Shown: positions 13,306-16,376, counted from the first letter of the stretch. The stretch: 64,000 nt of DNA from an uncultured Planctomycetia bacterium (GCA_964536865.1 CAZHYN010000003.1:9822-73821); one strand, 5' to 3'. Numbers and translations are program-made. The notes: generated from the letters alone by a model not told the origin.

Positions 13306-14322
13306 TTAAAGATTTTTCCCCACATACTCAATAAGCTCTACCATACGGCAGGAATATCCCCACTCATTATCATACCAGCTTAAAATTTTAACCAGATTAC
13401 CACCTACAACCCTTGTAGAAAGACCATCCACCAATGCAGAATAGCTTGAACCTACTATATCCTTAGAGACTATAGGTTCTTCCGTGTAACCTAAAATTCC
13501 TTTTAATTCTCCCTCAGCAGCTTCTTTTAAAACTTTATTGATTTCTTGAGGAGTAGTATCTCTTTTAGTAACCAAAGTAATGTCAGAAATAGAACCACAA
13601 GGGGTTGGGACACGCATAGCCATACCATCAAATTTCCCACTTAAGGAGGGAATAACCTCTACTGCAGCTTTAGCGGCATTGGTAGTGGTAGGAATAATAG
13701 ATACTCCTGCGGCACGGGCTCTTCTTAAATCTTTATGAGGTAAATCTAAAATTCTCTGGTCGTTGGTGTAGGAGTGAACCGTGGTCATTAAAGCCTTCTC
13801 TATCCCTATTTTTTCTTCAATTACTCTCATCACAGGGGTAAGGCTGTTAGTTGTGCAGGAAGCATTAGAAATAATATTATGTTTTTTGGAATCATACTTT
13901 TCTAAATTCACACCTATATTTACCATAACTGCATCCTCTGCCTCCCCTTTATAACGAGCAGATAAAATAACTTTTTTTGCGCCTGCAGTTAAATGCTTAC
14001 GGCAATCATCTAAAGCAGTAAAACGACCTGTTGACTCAACAACTATGTCCACTCCTAAATCTCCCCAAGGAAGTTGCGCAGGATCCTTTATCGCCAGAAC
14101 TTTTATTCTTTTCCCTTCTACTATCAGGCTCTCTCCTTCTGCCTTTACCTCACAAGGTAGCACTCCAAAATTAGAATCGTATTTTAAAAGATGAGCTAAG
14201 GTTTTTGCATCAGTCAAATCGTTAACTGCCACAAAATCAATCTCCTTTTTCTCTTTTAAAGCAGCCCTAAAAACTAATCTCCCAATTCTTCCAAAGCCGT
14301 TAATCCCCACTCTTACTGCCAT
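13306..14322 (-). CDS. gap: glyceraldehyde-3-phosphate dehydrogenase (type I)
   Basis: 338 aa with [15 protein letters not shown] and WYDNEWGYS motifs. Confidence 0.95.
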
Positions 14323-15355
14323 GACTACCCTCCTCCTTTAAAGAACTGTTCTCCTCTAACTTTACTTCTCTTAAATACTTAGCTGCTAACTCCGGAGGTG
14401 TAAATACCACGTAAAATCCACTACCCCACTCAAAACCCGCAACCCTAGTCAACTTAGGCATTATTTCAAAATGCCAGTGATAGGAAAAATGAGAATCGGT
14501 ATTTACCGGAGAAGTATGAATTATATAATTGTAAGGATGATCCCCTAAAACTTTATGAAGTCTTCCTATCACCTCCCTAAGGATCTGAGCTAAATTGGAT
14601 AGTTTAATATCGCCAATCATTCCGTAATCATCCAGATGCTCCTTAGGAATAATCCAAACCTCAAACGAAAAGCGAGAAGAAAGAGGACAGAAAGCTAAAA
14701 AATCCTCATTTTCGCATACTATCCGCTCTCCTGCTTCTAACTCATAAGCAATTATATCACAGAATATACACCTTTCTCTAAACTCATAGTACTTTTTTGC
14801 TCCTTTTACTTCTTCTTTGACATTTTTAGGAACCATAGGTAAAGCTATAAGTTGGGAATGACCATGTTCTAAAGATGCACCTGCTTGAACTCCTACATTT
14901 TTAAAGATAAGAATATATTTAAATCTTCTATCTTTTCTTAAATCTAAACTTCGTGAACGATAGGCTTTCAATACATACTCTACCTCTTTGAGGGAAAGCT
15001 GATCAAGTCCTTTGTAATGTTGGGGACTTTCTATAATAACCTCGTGAGCACCTATCCCATTGGAAAAATCATATAATCCTATTCCCTGCTTATCCAAATC
15101 TCCCTCAATCCTTAAAGCAGGAAATTTGTTAGGCACCACTCTTACTTTCCATCCTGGAGTATTGGGAGCTCGCTCTTTTTCAGAAATTGCTTCAATCTCA
15201 GGAGGAGTCATAGCTTCATTATTATAGCAAAAGGGGCAATCTTTATCACCCTTCCATTGGAAAGGAGGAAGATGAAATTCTTCCGGTAAAGTAGGATTCT
15301 CTACATCTACTACTACCCACCTACCGACAATAGGGTCTTTCCTTAATTCAGGCAT
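14300..15355 (-). CDS. galactose-1-phosphate uridylyltransferase-like HIT-superfamily nucleotidyltransferase (copy 1, canonical active site)
   Basis: CPFC zinc knuckle and an intact HxHxQ motif (EHGHSQ). 351 aa; overlaps the gap start. Confidence 0.7.
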
Positions 15356-15368
15356 AACTTTTTACACT

Positions 15369-16376
15369 CTACACTTCCACTTCTCTTAAGAACTTTGCTG
15401 CCTCTTCTGGCAAAGTAGGACATATATAGAAACCTGTTCCCCACTCAAATCCTGCTACTTGAACTAGCCGGGGAGTAATCTCTATATGCCAGTGATAATC
15501 TTCGTCTATCGTTGACCAGTATCCTGGATAAGGTCGCCTAAAGGGAGCGGTATGAATGATATAATTGTAAGGAGGATCAGCTAACAGTATTTTTATTTTT
15601 AGAAGAACCTTCTTAAGTAGACTGGCCAAAGAAAAAAGGTTTTCCCAAGAAGTTTTGTAGAAATCAGGGGAGTGTTCTTTGGGAAGAATCCACACCTCAA
15701 AGGGAAAACGGGGAGCAAAAGGAACTAAAGCTACAAAACCATTCTCCTCTAAAACCACCCTTTCCTGTTCCTTTAACTCTTGCCTTATCAAATCGCAGAA
15801 TACACATCTTTCATGATAATCATAATAAAATTTAGCTCCTTCCAACTCTTCTTTTACACGTTTTAAGTTAACAGGGGTAGCAATAATTTGTGAGCGAGAG
15901 TGTCTCACTCTTCCTCCTCCTGCATCCCATCCGTAGTTTTTAAATACCAAAACATACTTTATCCGCATATCTTCCTGTAAAGCTCTTATTCTCTCACAGT
16001 AGGCCCAAAATACATCTCTTATATTTTCTATTTCTAAGTCTGCCATATTAGCAATATGTTCAGGAGTATCTATAACAACTTCATGACTACCCACTCCTTC
16101 CATCAAATCATACGGTCCTTTTCCCTTCTTCCACGACTCTTTATCAGGCTCCAAAAAAGGTTTAATACTAGGAACGACTCTTACTCGCCAGTTTCCTTGA
16201 TCATCTTTTATGGAATACAACTCTCCAGGTGTTAACGCTTCTTTACCTCGACAGAAAGGACACTCTTTCTCAGGGGGAGAAGTATCTATATGAGGAAAAT
16301 CCTTTGGTCTTTTAGCACGTTCAGTAGAAATTATCACCCATCTTCCCAGAATAGGATCTTTTCTTAACTGAGGCAT
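15369..16376 (-). CDS. GalT-like HIT-superfamily paralog (copy 2) in which the nucleophile His of HxHxQ is replaced by Arg (RHSRSQ)
   Basis: Paralogous to copy 1 (CPFC, shared blocks KNYGWDAGG.../FEWGTGFY). Start placed at MPQLRKDP. The HxHxQ motif reads H-S-R-S-Q. Confidence 0.65.
   Translation of the reverse strand: MPQLRKDPILGRWVIISTERAKRPKDFPHIDTSPPEKECPFCRGKEALTPGELYSIKDDQGNWRVRVVPSIKPFLEPDKESWKKGKGPYDLMEGVGSHEVVIDTPEHIANMADLEIENIRDVFWAYCERIRALQEDMRIKYVLVFKNYGWDAGGGRVRHSRSQIIATPVNLKRVKEELEGAKFYYDYHERCVFCDLIRQELKEQERVVLEENGFVALVPFAPRFPFEVWILPKEHSPDFYKTSWENLFSLASLLKKVLLKIKILLADPPYNYIIHTAPFRRPYPGYWSTIDEDYHWHIEITPRLVQVAGFEWGTGFYICPTLPEEAAKFLREVEV

What the first reader, a model, noticed from the sequence alone, without database searches (positions are those of the whole stretch)
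14300..16376. Tandem GalT-like HIT nucleotidyltransferase paralogs fused onto the gap-pgk-tpiA-secG operon; copy 2 has lost the catalytic nucleophile His
Both proteins keep the CPFC zinc knuckle and the overall GalT class I fold. Copy 1 has the canonical HxHxQ (EHGHSQ). Copy 2 reads RHSRSQ at the same place: the second His is Arg. In GalT and related HIT enzymes (GalT-like ADP-glucose and Ap4A phosphorylases) that His forms the covalent nucleotidyl-enzyme intermediate. Copy 2 is therefore either a pseudo-enzyme or regulatory partner, or it uses a different mechanism. The physical linkage is also unusual: the copy 1 ORF overlaps the gap start, inside one long minus-strand string from PilZ to oppF.
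Basis: partly seen in the sequence, partly recalled or inferred. Interest (0 to 1): 0.6.

Follow-up and report, generated by a model that had tools for sequence, protein, structure and literature searches.

The report
Half-dead two-gene sugar-nucleotide enzyme
Two neighbouring GalT-like genes in an Omnitrophota genome have each lost the opposite half of a shared active site, so they most likely work only as a mixed pair with one live catalytic centre. This is a clear natural case of an enzyme becoming dependent on a "dead" partner.

Summary
Two class I GalT-like HIT genes lie head to tail on the minus strand, directly upstream of gap-pgk-tpiA-secG. Copy 1 (14300-15355) reads EHGHSQ. Copy 2 (15369-16376) reads RHSRSQ, with Arg at the nucleophile His position.

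The Arg is conserved: 117 of 120 copy 2 orthologues have it, and copy 2 evolves more slowly than copy 1. The order copy 2, copy 1, gap recurs in about 30 Omnitrophota-type genomes. Relatives in other phyla are single, intact genes, usually beside glycogen synthase or GH57 genes.

The two copies have lost complementary parts of the site:
- Copy 2 lost the residues that act within its own chain (nucleophile His, alpha-phosphate Ser, nucleotide Asn/Lys). It kept the N-terminal Arg-x-x-Arg arm and the sugar loop, which in GalT dimers complete the partner's site.
- Copy 1 kept every own-chain catalytic residue and lost those two arginines.

Three diverged natural fusion proteins at the same locus delete exactly these dispensable parts.

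Best reading (confidence 0.6): an obligate heterodimer with one composite active site. It is probably an NDP-glucose phosphorylase or transferase linking glycogen to glycolysis. No biochemistry was done, and I found no prior description.

The parts
15369..16376 (-). Copy 2: GalT-like HIT protein without the nucleophile His (335 aa). Proposed non-catalytic, trans-complementing subunit.
   Evidence: ORF. PF01087 + PF02744. E 5e-73 to At5g18200. AF2 model matches At5g18200 with TM 0.72-0.80. 120 orthologues at 62-96% identity.
15888..15923 (-). Copy 2 remodelled catalytic loop A152-Q163 (AGGGRVRHSRSQ). It has a one-residue insertion, the Ser161 equivalent is replaced (R156), the Zn-ligand His159 is kept, the nucleophile is replaced by R161 (codon CGC, 15894-15896), and Q163 is kept.
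   Evidence: Alignments to At5g18200 and E. coli GalT. In 120 orthologues: R117/H3 at the nucleophile, R96/K13 at the Ser position, inserted G in 113. Codons.
16164..16169 (-). Copy 2 S70-I71, replacing the conserved Asn-Lys of the PNKFPAL nucleotide-binding motif (E. coli N77-D78 position).
   Evidence: The outgroup has N in 47/50 and K in 49/50. Copy 2 clade has S in 28/31 and I in 25/31. In 120 orthologues, S in 115.
16308..16319 (-). Copy 2 N-terminal arm R20-A-K-R23 (equivalent to E. coli GalT R28/R31). It is retained and is proposed to reach into copy 1's active site.
   Evidence: R20 in 120/120 and R23 in 115/120 orthologues. Arg48 of human GALT (= Ec R28) comes from the chain opposite Gln188 (PMC5081055).
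15414..15455 (-). Copy 2 C-terminal loop 308-321 (AGFEWGTGFYICPT), equivalent to the sugar-binding loop that class I GalTs supply in trans.
   Evidence: Conserved as in the single-copy outgroup. The trans role of the K311-Q323 loop is stated in PMC5081055 and in bioRxiv 10.64898/2026.09.13.751320.
14300..15355 (-). Copy 1: GalT-like HIT protein with a complete own-chain catalytic set (351 aa). Proposed catalytic subunit. Its 3' end overlaps gap by 23 nt.
   Evidence: ORF. Pfam and NCBIfam: TIGR00209 scores 122.3, above the 102.1 cut-off. E 5e-65 to At5g18200. Overlap shown.
14852..14884 (-). Copy 1 catalytic loop 158-168 ([11 protein letters not shown]): Ser161, Zn-ligand His164, nucleophile His166, Gln168.
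   Evidence: In 119 orthologues these positions are kept in 118-119: S110/T9, H119, H119, Q118.
15287..15298 (-). Copy 1 N-terminal arm positions 20-23 (N-P-T-L). The two arginines that are invariant elsewhere are lost.
   Evidence: The R28 equivalent is never Arg in 119 orthologues. The R31 equivalent is Arg in 8 of 119. The outgroup has Arg in 49/50 and 46/50.
16403..16430 (-). Promoter-like site TTGCAA-16 nt-TGcTATAAT between PilZ and copy 2, followed by a GAGAGG ribosome-binding site and the ATG at 16376. Probable start of the operon.
   Evidence: Consensus scan, 10 of 12 matches with an extended -10. Sequence. The number of such sites in the region is not above the shuffled expectation, so this is suggestive only.
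11020..14322 (-). gap (13306-14322), pgk (12119-13294), tpiA (11350-12111), secG (11020-11340): the conserved downstream partners of the pair.
   Evidence: ORFs. Where contigs reach far enough, the same order follows the pair in the related loci and in L083 and L084.

Best explanation
**Proposed mechanism.** Copy 1 and copy 2 form an obligate heterodimer of the class I GalT / ADP-glucose-phosphorylase type with a single complete active site.
- Copy 1 supplies the residues that act within its own chain: the zinc knuckle, the nucleotide-binding Asn-Lys, the alpha-phosphate Ser, and the His that forms the covalent nucleotidyl-enzyme intermediate.
- Copy 2 supplies the residues that such dimers donate across the interface: the N-terminal Arg-x-x-Arg arm and the C-terminal sugar-binding loop.
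- The symmetry-related second site (copy 2's pocket plus copy 1's arm) is catalytically dead. It has been refixed in a new, conserved state: Arg for His, Arg/Gly for Ser, Ser-Ile for Asn-Lys.

**Probable reaction (inferred).** By homology and gene context, the live site interconverts an NDP-glucose (most likely ADP-glucose) and glucose-1-phosphate. This would link glycogen or nucleotide-sugar pools to the co-transcribed lower-glycolysis genes.

**Shown versus inferred.** Sequence states, conservation, synteny and the fusions are shown here. The physical heterodimer, the substrate and the direction of the reaction are inferred.
For: **1. The Arg is a fixed trait under selection.**
- It occurs in 117 of 120 orthologues.
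- The copy 2 clade is more conserved than the copy 1 clade: 61.3% against 57.5% mean pairwise identity, and higher in 85% of genome pairs.

**2. The losses are complementary.** Positions were mapped to E. coli GalT.
- Copy 2 changes N77, the adjacent Lys, S161 and H166. It keeps the R28/R31 equivalents in 120/120 and 115/120.
- Copy 1 keeps all own-chain residues in 118-119 of 119. It has no Arg at the R28 equivalent (0/119) and Arg at the R31 equivalent in 8/119.
- 50 single-copy relatives keep these residues almost without exception.

**3. The own-chain and cross-chain assignments come from solved structures.** Class I GalTs and At5g18200 are homodimers with active sites between the subunits. 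The sugar loop and Arg48 (Ec R28) come from the opposite chain.

**4. Genomic linkage.**
- The order copy 2, copy 1, gap holds in 27 complete tandem loci and in L084. Truncated loci are consistent with it.
- The median spacer between the two genes is 2 nt, and 20 of 27 spacers are 20 nt or less.

**5. Natural fusions.** Three fused proteins of 596-599 aa exist, each about 52% identical to P0329, the one used as query. The two whose loci were fetched sit in the same synteny (tyrS upstream, and gap-pgk-tpi-secG downstream in the one long contig).
- They keep copy 2's arm and its C-terminal half with a canonical AGFEWGTGxYINPT loop.
- They delete copy 2's zinc knuckle, nucleotide motif and catalytic motif.
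- They delete copy 1's arm.
- AF2 models one fusion as a compact protein (pTM 0.82) with an ordered arm. In the copy 2 monomer model the arm and loops have pLDDT below 50.

**6. Deep copy 2 relatives.** P0183, P0125 and P0132 erode the own-chain site further but keep the arm and the loop. P0183 still sits upstream of an intact copy and gap.

**7. Function context.**
- The best solved relative is an ADP-glucose phosphorylase.
- Single-copy relatives sit beside glycogen synthase in 28 of 50 loci and beside GH57 genes in 25 of 50.
- Glycogen synthesis was predicted from most Omnitrophota MAGs in one study (PMC8542988).
Against: - There is no direct evidence of physical interaction and no heterodimer model. 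Only single chains could be modelled.
- The cross-chain role of the R31 equivalent is inferred from its position next to R28, not read from a structure.
- Copy 2's pocket is not simply relaxed. Arg161, Arg156, the inserted Gly, Asn147, Gln163 and the zinc ligands are all strongly conserved, so the pocket may have a function this model does not explain.
- A few relatives do not fit neatly:
  - P0122 has the His, lacks the Arg arm, and stands alone.
  - P0125 is a dead copy 2-like gene with no partner downstream on its contig.
  - 3 of 120 copy 2 orthologues and 2 of 29 tandem loci (31 copy 2-clade sequences) retain His.
- All copy 1 or copy 2 sequences share ancestry. The large counts therefore reflect a few ancestral events plus continued constraint or relaxation, not independent trials.
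- Substrate and direction are not determined. The tandem loci and the window contain no glgA or GH57 gene.
Confidence: 0.6

Rival explanations
1. Copy 2 is a regulatory subunit. Its remodelled, positively charged pocket (R156, R/K158, R161, with N147, Q163 and the zinc site kept) binds a phosphorylated metabolite and tunes the live site of the heterodimer. This extends the best explanation rather than replacing it.
For: The pocket is refixed, not relaxed: R161 in 117/120, R or K at 156 in 109/120, inserted Gly in 113/120, N147 and H159 in 120/120, Q163 in 116/120. Positive charge lost from copy 1's arm reappears in copy 2's loop. The pair is co-transcribed with gap-pgk-tpiA.
Against: Deeper copy 2 relatives and the three fusions erode or delete the pocket altogether, so a ligand site is not essential across the lineage. 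The nucleotide-binding Asn/Lys are lost. No ligand can be inferred from sequence. The conserved Arg residues could simply fill and stabilise an empty pocket.
Confidence: 0.2
2. The two proteins act independently as separate homodimers. Copy 2 is an enzyme with an altered mechanism that needs no covalent His intermediate, or it acts on a different substrate.
For: Copy 2 is strongly conserved over its full length, with both metal sites and Q163. Other GalT-like lineages without the His stand alone in their genomes: P0128, P0134 and P0147, plus P0152 on a contig too short to judge.
Against: Copy 2 also lacks the alpha-phosphate Ser and the nucleotide Asn/Lys. A copy 1 homodimer would lack the otherwise invariant arginine pair. 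Neither homodimer would have a complete site, while the mixed dimer has exactly one. The fusions delete copy 2's pocket and keep only its cross-chain parts. HIT enzymes use the second motif His as nucleophile. That replacing it abolishes turnover is general knowledge, not tested here.
Confidence: 0.12
3. Copy 2 is a decaying duplicate (a pseudogene in the making) with no function.
For: Several catalytic residues are lost.
Against: The reading frame is intact in more than 120 clusters. Copy 2 is more conserved than the catalytic copy. There are many invariant columns, position and spacing are conserved, and its cross-chain elements survive in the fusions.
Confidence: 0.02

Closest known systems
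Arabidopsis thaliana At5g18200, ADP-glucose phosphorylase (PDB 1Z84, 1ZWJ, 2H39); GalT branch of the HIT superfamily
   Same: It is the best solved relative of both copies (E 5e-65 and 5e-73, 36-39% identity, TM 0.72-0.80). It has the same two-half-barrel fold and the same N-terminal Cys-x-x-Cys/His/His zinc-site residues. Copy 1 has the same S-x-x-H-x-H-x-Q catalytic loop. The enzyme is a dimer with active sites between subunits.
   Different: At5g18200 is a homodimer with two equivalent sites. Here two different chains appear to build one site. Copy 2 has Arg at the His186 position. Activity and substrate were not tested here.
Class I galactose-1-phosphate uridylyltransferase (E. coli GalT, human GALT)
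   Same: Same fold, zinc knuckle and HxHxQ chemistry in copy 1. The roles of R28/R31, S161, H164, H166, Q168 and the cross-chain K311-Q323 loop come from these structures.
   Different: Identity is only 22-23%. Neither copy reaches the PRK11720 cut-off (134.7 and 110.5 against 448). There are no gal genes nearby. The motif is N-K where GalT has N77-D78. The public names 'galactose-1-phosphate uridylyltransferase' and 'DUF4931' are probably wrong as function labels.
Single-copy bacterial GalT-like genes beside glycogen synthase and GH57 genes (many phyla, uncharacterised)
   Same: About 50% identical to both copies. They come in two subtypes, long-loop (like copy 2) and short-loop (like copy 1). 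All catalytic and cross-chain residues are intact.
   Different: They are single genes, presumably homodimers. They are linked to glgA/GH57 rather than gap-pgk-tpiA.
Enzyme plus catalytically dead paralogue pairs, for example T. brucei AdoMetDC/prozyme (PMC5201418) and, from general knowledge, GlgC/GlgD ADP-glucose pyrophosphorylase in Firmicutes
   Same: A conserved inactive paralogue is needed alongside an active one. The genes are adjacent and co-expressed in the bacterial cases.
   Different: The fold and chemistry differ. Here the dependence seems to arise from a shared-interface active site with mirror-image losses in the two chains, not from relief of autoinhibition. This comparison is an analogy only and was not tested.

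Membership tests
Class I GalT / GalT branch of the HIT superfamily (Pfam PF01087 + PF02744) | Two-domain GalT fold (N- and C-terminal HIT-like half-barrels) | tested here: met
   Both copies exceed the Pfam gathering scores for both domains. Full-length matches to 1Z84. The copy 2 AF2 model matches 1ZWJ/2H39 with TM 0.72-0.80.
Class I GalT / GalT branch of the HIT superfamily | Structural zinc site: Cys-x-x-Cys knuckle, His115 equivalent and first motif His | tested here: met
   Copy 1 has C40, C43, H113, H164. Copy 2 has C39, C42, H107, H159. All are invariant in 119 and 120 orthologues. Metal binding itself was not tested.
Class I GalT / GalT branch of the HIT superfamily | HxHxQ motif whose second His is the nucleophile (copy 1) | tested here: met
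   EHGHSQ; H166 in 119/119 orthologues.
Class I GalT / GalT branch of the HIT superfamily | HxHxQ motif whose second His is the nucleophile (copy 2) | tested here: not met
   RHSRSQ. R161 aligns with His186 of At5g18200 and H166 of EcGalT. R117/H3 in 120 orthologues. Copy 2 therefore has the fold but is not a catalytic member.
Class I GalT / GalT branch of the HIT superfamily | Alpha-phosphate Ser (EcGalT S161) and nucleotide-binding Asn (N77) | tested here: not met
   Not met for copy 2: R156 plus a one-residue insertion, and S70. Met for copy 1: S161 and N76.
Class I GalT / GalT branch of the HIT superfamily | Cross-chain Arg pair (EcGalT R28/R31) on the N-terminal arm | tested here: not met
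   Not met for copy 1: N20 and L23, with Arg in 0/119 and 8/119 orthologues. Met for copy 2: R20 and R23, with Arg in 120/120 and 115/120.
NCBIfam TIGR00209 galT_1 / NF008724 (true GalT equivalogs) | Score at or above the curated cut-off | tested here: inconclusive
   TIGR00209: copy 1 scores 122.3 (cut-off 102.1) and copy 2 scores 90.6, below it. NF008724: 134.7 and 110.5 against a cut-off of 448. No gal operon context.
ADP-glucose phosphorylase (At5g18200-like) | Phosphorolysis of ADP-glucose to glucose-1-phosphate + ADP through a covalent His-AMP intermediate | not testable with these tools
   Only homology and the glycogen-gene context of single-copy relatives point this way.
Obligate heteromer of an enzyme and a dead paralogue | Conserved co-occurrence and adjacency of the two genes | tested here: met
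   27 complete tandem loci plus L084, all in the order copy 2, copy 1. Median spacer 2 nt.
Obligate heteromer of an enzyme and a dead paralogue | Complementary loss, so that only the mixed dimer has a complete site | tested here: met
   The fusions show the same pattern.
Obligate heteromer of an enzyme and a dead paralogue | Fusion of the two partners in some genomes | tested here: met
   P0121, P0329 and P0391: each of the other two is about 52% identical to P0329. Same locus for the two fetched. AF2 pTM 0.82.
Obligate heteromer of an enzyme and a dead paralogue | Physical complex, with activity that depends on both chains | not testable with these tools

The most novel reading that the evidence does not exclude
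The dead pocket of copy 2 has been rebuilt into a new ligand-binding site. Three conserved basic residues replace the Ser and His, the nucleotide-binding Asn/Lys are gone, and the sugar/phosphate-binding Asn and Gln are kept. This site would sense a phosphorylated sugar or glycolytic intermediate and control the single live site. The pair would then be an allosterically regulated NDP-glucose phosphorylase built into the lower-glycolysis operon. That would be a kind of regulation not described for any HIT or GalT-family enzyme.
Probability: 0.2. Interest if true: 0.75.

Novelty: new variant of a known kind. Interest (0 to 1): 0.6.

Why it matters
- **Evolution of complexity.** If confirmed, this is an unusually clear natural record of a symmetric homodimeric enzyme with shared active sites becoming an obligate asymmetric heterodimer. 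Each chain lost the mirror-image half of the site. Intermediates are preserved (copy 2 forms that still have His, further eroded forms, and fusions that delete the useless parts). That makes the idea of "complexity by complementary degeneration" directly testable in a simple metabolic enzyme.
- **First such partner in this family.** As far as my searches show, it would be the first pseudoenzyme partner described in the GalT/HIT family.
- **Annotation.** Hundreds of Omnitrophota genes are named "galactose-1-phosphate uridylyltransferase" or "DUF4931". Neither name describes what they probably do.
- **A wider family.** The work points to a large uncharacterised bacterial family linked to glycogen synthase. 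It may make or break ADP-glucose without ATP, which matters for the energy budget of these small anaerobes.

Tried and rejected
- **Another His as nucleophile in copy 2.** Rejected. HMMER and MAFFT alignments agree, and the only nearby His is the zinc-ligand equivalent.
- **Sequencing error or one-off decay.** Rejected by conservation of the Arg.
- **Recent tandem duplication.** Rejected. The copies belong to different loop subtypes. They are never exclusive sisters in 100 bootstrap NJ trees, although the deep branching is otherwise poorly resolved.
- **PilZ as part of the unit.** Not supported. The upstream gene differs between genomes (PilZ, tyrS, fmt), no PilZ was found in the related loci, and a promoter-like site lies between PilZ and copy 2.
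- **Glycogen genes near the pair.** None in the window or in the tandem loci.
- **Heterodimer structure prediction.** Not possible with single-chain input. An alignment meant to cover both halves of the fusion placed all homologues on the arm and the C-terminal half, so the N-terminal half of the fusion model rests on three sequences.
- **Literature.** Seven searches found no description of a GalT-like protein without the nucleophile, or of this pairing. The original At5g18200 paper could not be read.
- **Other His-less lineages as tandem partners.** The four I checked stand alone, one on a contig too short to judge. The tandem model is therefore specific to the Omnitrophota clade.
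Full report
**What is in the window**

Two ORFs lie head to tail on the minus strand. Copy 2 is 15369-16376 and copy 1 is 14300-15355. They are followed directly by gap (13306-14322), pgk, tpiA, secG and an oppABCDF-type transporter.

Copy 2 starts at the ATG at 16376. Its orthologues begin [15 protein letters not shown] ribosome-binding site lies 7 nt upstream. 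The alternative TTG at 16400 sits just after a promoter-like TTGCAA-16-TGcTATAAT site.

Copy 1's last 23 nt overlap the gap start, whose strong AAGGAGG site lies inside copy 1's tail. That tail is found only in the window and its nearest relative, because other orthologues are 331-335 aa.

The sequence has about 34% G+C. All close homologues come from Omnitrophota MAGs.

**Checking the observation**

- Both proteins pass the Pfam thresholds for the N- and C-terminal GalT domains.
- Both match the Arabidopsis ADP-glucose phosphorylase At5g18200 over their full length. Copy 2 matches better than copy 1 (249 against 223 bits).
- The two copies are 45% identical.
- Both keep the CPFC knuckle.
- Copy 1 reads [11 protein letters not shown]. 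Copy 2 reads AGGGRVRHSRSQ.
- In the HMMER alignment to 1Z84/2H39 and in MAFFT alignments that include E. coli GalT, copy 2's R161 (codon CGC) falls at the nucleophile position, His186 / H166. H159 falls at the zinc-ligand His.
- An AF2 model of copy 2 (pTM 0.74) matches At5g18200 best, with TM 0.72-0.80.

**The Arg is a conserved trait**

Among the 120 best copy 2 homologues (62-96% identity), 117 have Arg and 3 have His at this position.

A scan of one genome per species returned 80 loci.
- In 27 loci with both genes complete, the order is always copy 2, then copy 1, then gap. Two truncated loci and one locus with a split downstream copy are consistent with this. Where the contig reaches far enough, pgk-tpiA-secG usually follow.
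- All are labelled Omnitrophota, or are MAGs with doubtful labels.
- The upstream gene has Arg in 27 of 29 loci (29 of 31 copy 2-clade sequences, counting the window's own copy and the two truncated loci) and His in 2. It always carries a one-residue insertion in the loop.
- The downstream gene always reads AGAS-x-E-H-x-H-[ST]-Q.
- The spacer between the two genes has a median of 2 nt, and 20 of 27 spacers are 20 nt or less. The spacer to gap is about 50 nt.

The roughly 50 loci from other phyla carry a single gene with an intact motif. These genes are not next to gap.

Across the same genome pairs, copy 2 is more conserved than copy 1: 61.3% against 57.5% mean identity, and higher in 85% of pairs. 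Decay is therefore excluded.

**The key result: complementary loss**

Class I GalTs and At5g18200 are homodimers whose active sites lie between the subunits.
- The chain carrying the nucleophile also supplies the zinc site, the alpha-phosphate Ser161, Asn153, Gln168 and the nucleotide contacts.
- The other chain supplies the sugar-binding loop K311-Q323.
- Arg48 of human GALT (E. coli R28) reaches Gln188 from the opposite chain.
- R28, R31, G159 and S161 contact UDP-glucose in the E. coli enzyme.

I compared 50 single-copy relatives, 28 downstream copies and 31 upstream copies, and then 119 and 120 database orthologues.

| Position (E. coli GalT numbering) | Copy 2 | Copy 1 | Single-copy relatives (n=50) |
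|---|---|---|---|
| R28 equivalent | Arg in 120/120 | Arg in 0/119 (N, H, K, E, S, D...) | Arg in 49/50 |
| R31 equivalent | Arg in 115/120 | Arg in 8/119 | Arg in 46/50 |
| N77 equivalent | Ser in 115/120 | Asn in 119/119 | Asn in 47/50 |
| Residue after N77 | Ile in 72, Lys in 27 of 120 | Lys in 119/119 | Lys in 49/50 |
| S161 equivalent | Arg/Lys in 109/120, plus an inserted Gly | Ser/Thr in 119/119 | Ser in 39, Thr in 7 of 50 |
| H166 (nucleophile) | Arg in 117/120 | His in 119/119 | His in 50/50 |
| Sugar loop | Canonical | Relaxed at three positions just after it | Canonical |

A copy 1 homodimer would lack the arginine pair. A copy 2 homodimer would lack the nucleophile, the Ser and the nucleotide contacts. 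Only the mixed dimer has one complete site, built from copy 1's own-chain residues and copy 2's cross-chain residues.

These counts are not independent events, because each clade shares ancestry. What matters is the pattern. The arginine positions of copy 1 vary freely, which indicates lost constraint. The same positions are fixed in copy 2 and in the outgroup.

**Independent support from fusions and eroded relatives**

- A search of 1.84 billion representatives found P0121 (599 aa). Later searches found P0329 (599 aa) and P0391 (596 aa). P0391 and P0121 are each about 52% identical to P0329, and the three come from different samples.
- P0121 sits between tyrS and gap-pgk-tpiA-secG. P0329 sits after rpsA-tyrS. 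This is the same locus as the two-gene form.
- All three fusions share one architecture:
  - copy 2's arm, with an invariant VERAKRPNDF;
  - a short degenerate stretch with no zinc knuckle, no nucleotide motif and no HxRxQ;
  - copy 2's C-terminal half, with a canonical AGFEWGTGxYINPT loop;
  - a linker;
  - a copy 1 body that starts at CPFC. It has no arm, all own-chain residues are intact, and its own sugar loop is degenerate.
- The fusions therefore delete exactly the parts the model calls dispensable.
- AF2 models P0329 as one compact protein (pTM 0.82, mean pLDDT 81.7) with an ordered, beta-stranded arm. In the copy 2 monomer model, the arm and the interface loops have pLDDT below 50. The N-terminal half of the fusion model rests on only three sequences, so this is supportive, not decisive.
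- Deep members of the copy 2 clade (P0183, P0125, P0132) have eroded the zinc knuckle, the nucleotide motif and the catalytic loop. They keep the RxxRP arm and the loop. P0183 still lies upstream of an intact copy and gap.

**Origin**

Copy 2 carries a "long loop" (GYWxTIxxD) before the HWH motif. Copy 1 has the "short loop". Both subtypes occur elsewhere as single, intact genes.

In 100 bootstrap NJ trees, the two clades were never exclusive sisters. Copy 2 grouped next to long-loop single genes in 83 trees. The partners are therefore old paralogues rather than a recent tandem duplicate. The method is crude and the deep order is unresolved.

The His-bearing copy 2 forms already have the insertion, the Ser loss and the Asn-to-Ser change. 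Those changes therefore did not depend on the His-to-Arg change.

**Likely function**

Single-copy relatives lie beside a starch/glycogen synthase (GT5) in 28 of 50 loci and beside a GH57 enzyme in 25 of 50. This includes two single-copy Omnitrophota loci.

Together with the At5g18200 homology, this suggests interconversion of an NDP-glucose and glucose-1-phosphate in glycogen metabolism. In the tandem lineage the genes have moved to the head of gap-pgk-tpiA-secG. No glgA or GH57 gene is nearby.

Omnitrophota are described as sugar fermenters, and glycogen synthesis was predicted for most of the MAGs in that study (PMC8542988). The substrate, the direction, and whether phosphate or a sugar phosphate is the acceptor remain inferences.

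**What does not fit**

- Copy 2's pocket is refixed rather than relaxed in the main clade. R161, R156, the inserted Gly, N147, Q163 and the zinc ligands are all conserved. This leaves room for a ligand-binding or regulatory role, or a purely structural one.
- P0122 has the His, lacks the arm arginines, and stands alone.
- P0125 is a dead copy 2-like gene with no partner downstream on its contig.
- Several unrelated lineages of GalT-like proteins also lack the His (V, Y, I or C at that position). The four I checked stand alone, one of them on a contig too short to judge.

**Known or new**

Public records name these genes "galactose-1-phosphate uridylyltransferase", "DUF4931" or "HIT domain". 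Copy 1 passes the TIGR00209 cut-off and copy 2 does not. Neither comes near the PRK11720 cut-off.

Seven literature searches found no report of a GalT-family protein without the nucleophile, or of this pairing. The library is incomplete, so earlier work cannot be ruled out.

**Verdict**

This is a new variant of a known enzyme kind. Confidence in the heterodimer model is 0.6, and lower for the specific reaction. Interest is 0.6.

Noticed in passing
window 4395-5405 (-): A Mutator/IS256-family transposase (PF00872, E 6e-59) lies directly downstream of oppF (5557-6459). It interrupts the long co-directional gene string.
   Followed up: no
window 848-3615 (-): An archaeal-type cofactor-independent phosphoglycerate mutase (PF10143) at 2416-3615 is followed by CstA at 848-2419. 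This is one more glycolytic gene on the same strand, separated from gap-pgk-tpiA by the opp genes and the transposase.
   Followed up: no
window 16450-16785 (-): A stand-alone PilZ-domain protein (111 aa) lies just upstream of copy 2. It is not conserved there in other genomes, where tyrS or fmt takes that place. A promoter-like site separates it from copy 2.
   Followed up: partly
window 20249-21124 (-): A rubrerythrin-like ORF (126 aa, GTG start) and a 119-aa ORF that looks like the N-terminal part of a ferredoxin-reductase-type protein both appear short for their families. They may be fragments.
   Followed up: no
L085, L087, L094, L095 (proteins P0128, P0147, P0134, P0152): Several separate lineages of GalT-like proteins lack the nucleophile His (Val, Ile, Tyr or Cys at that position, often with the Gln also changed). 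No second GalT-like gene lies beside them. Their neighbours include a Usp protein, prfB and a baeRF-family protein. L095 is only 1.7 kb, too short to judge. Loss of the His has happened repeatedly in this family.
   Followed up: partly
protein P0145 (871 aa, from the representatives search): One chain carries two complete GalT-like modules, both with intact HxHSQ, behind a low-complexity N-terminus. This is a fusion of two live copies, unlike the Omnitrophota fusions.
   Followed up: no
L026-L080 single-copy loci: A large, apparently uncharacterised bacterial GalT-like family (Zixibacteria, Nitrospirota, Acidobacteriota, Elusimicrobiota and others) sits beside glycogen synthase and GH57 genes. 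In 8 loci it also sits beside an NTP_transf_4 sugar nucleotidyltransferase. This suggests an unstudied route for NDP-glucose in glycogen metabolism.
   Followed up: partly
L089/L090 (protein P0122): A stand-alone GalT-like gene lies between lptD and ruvX. It keeps the nucleophile His but lacks the N-terminal Arg pair and has an insertion in the catalytic loop (AGSSPIKHAHSQ). It does not fit either partner type cleanly.
   Followed up: partly
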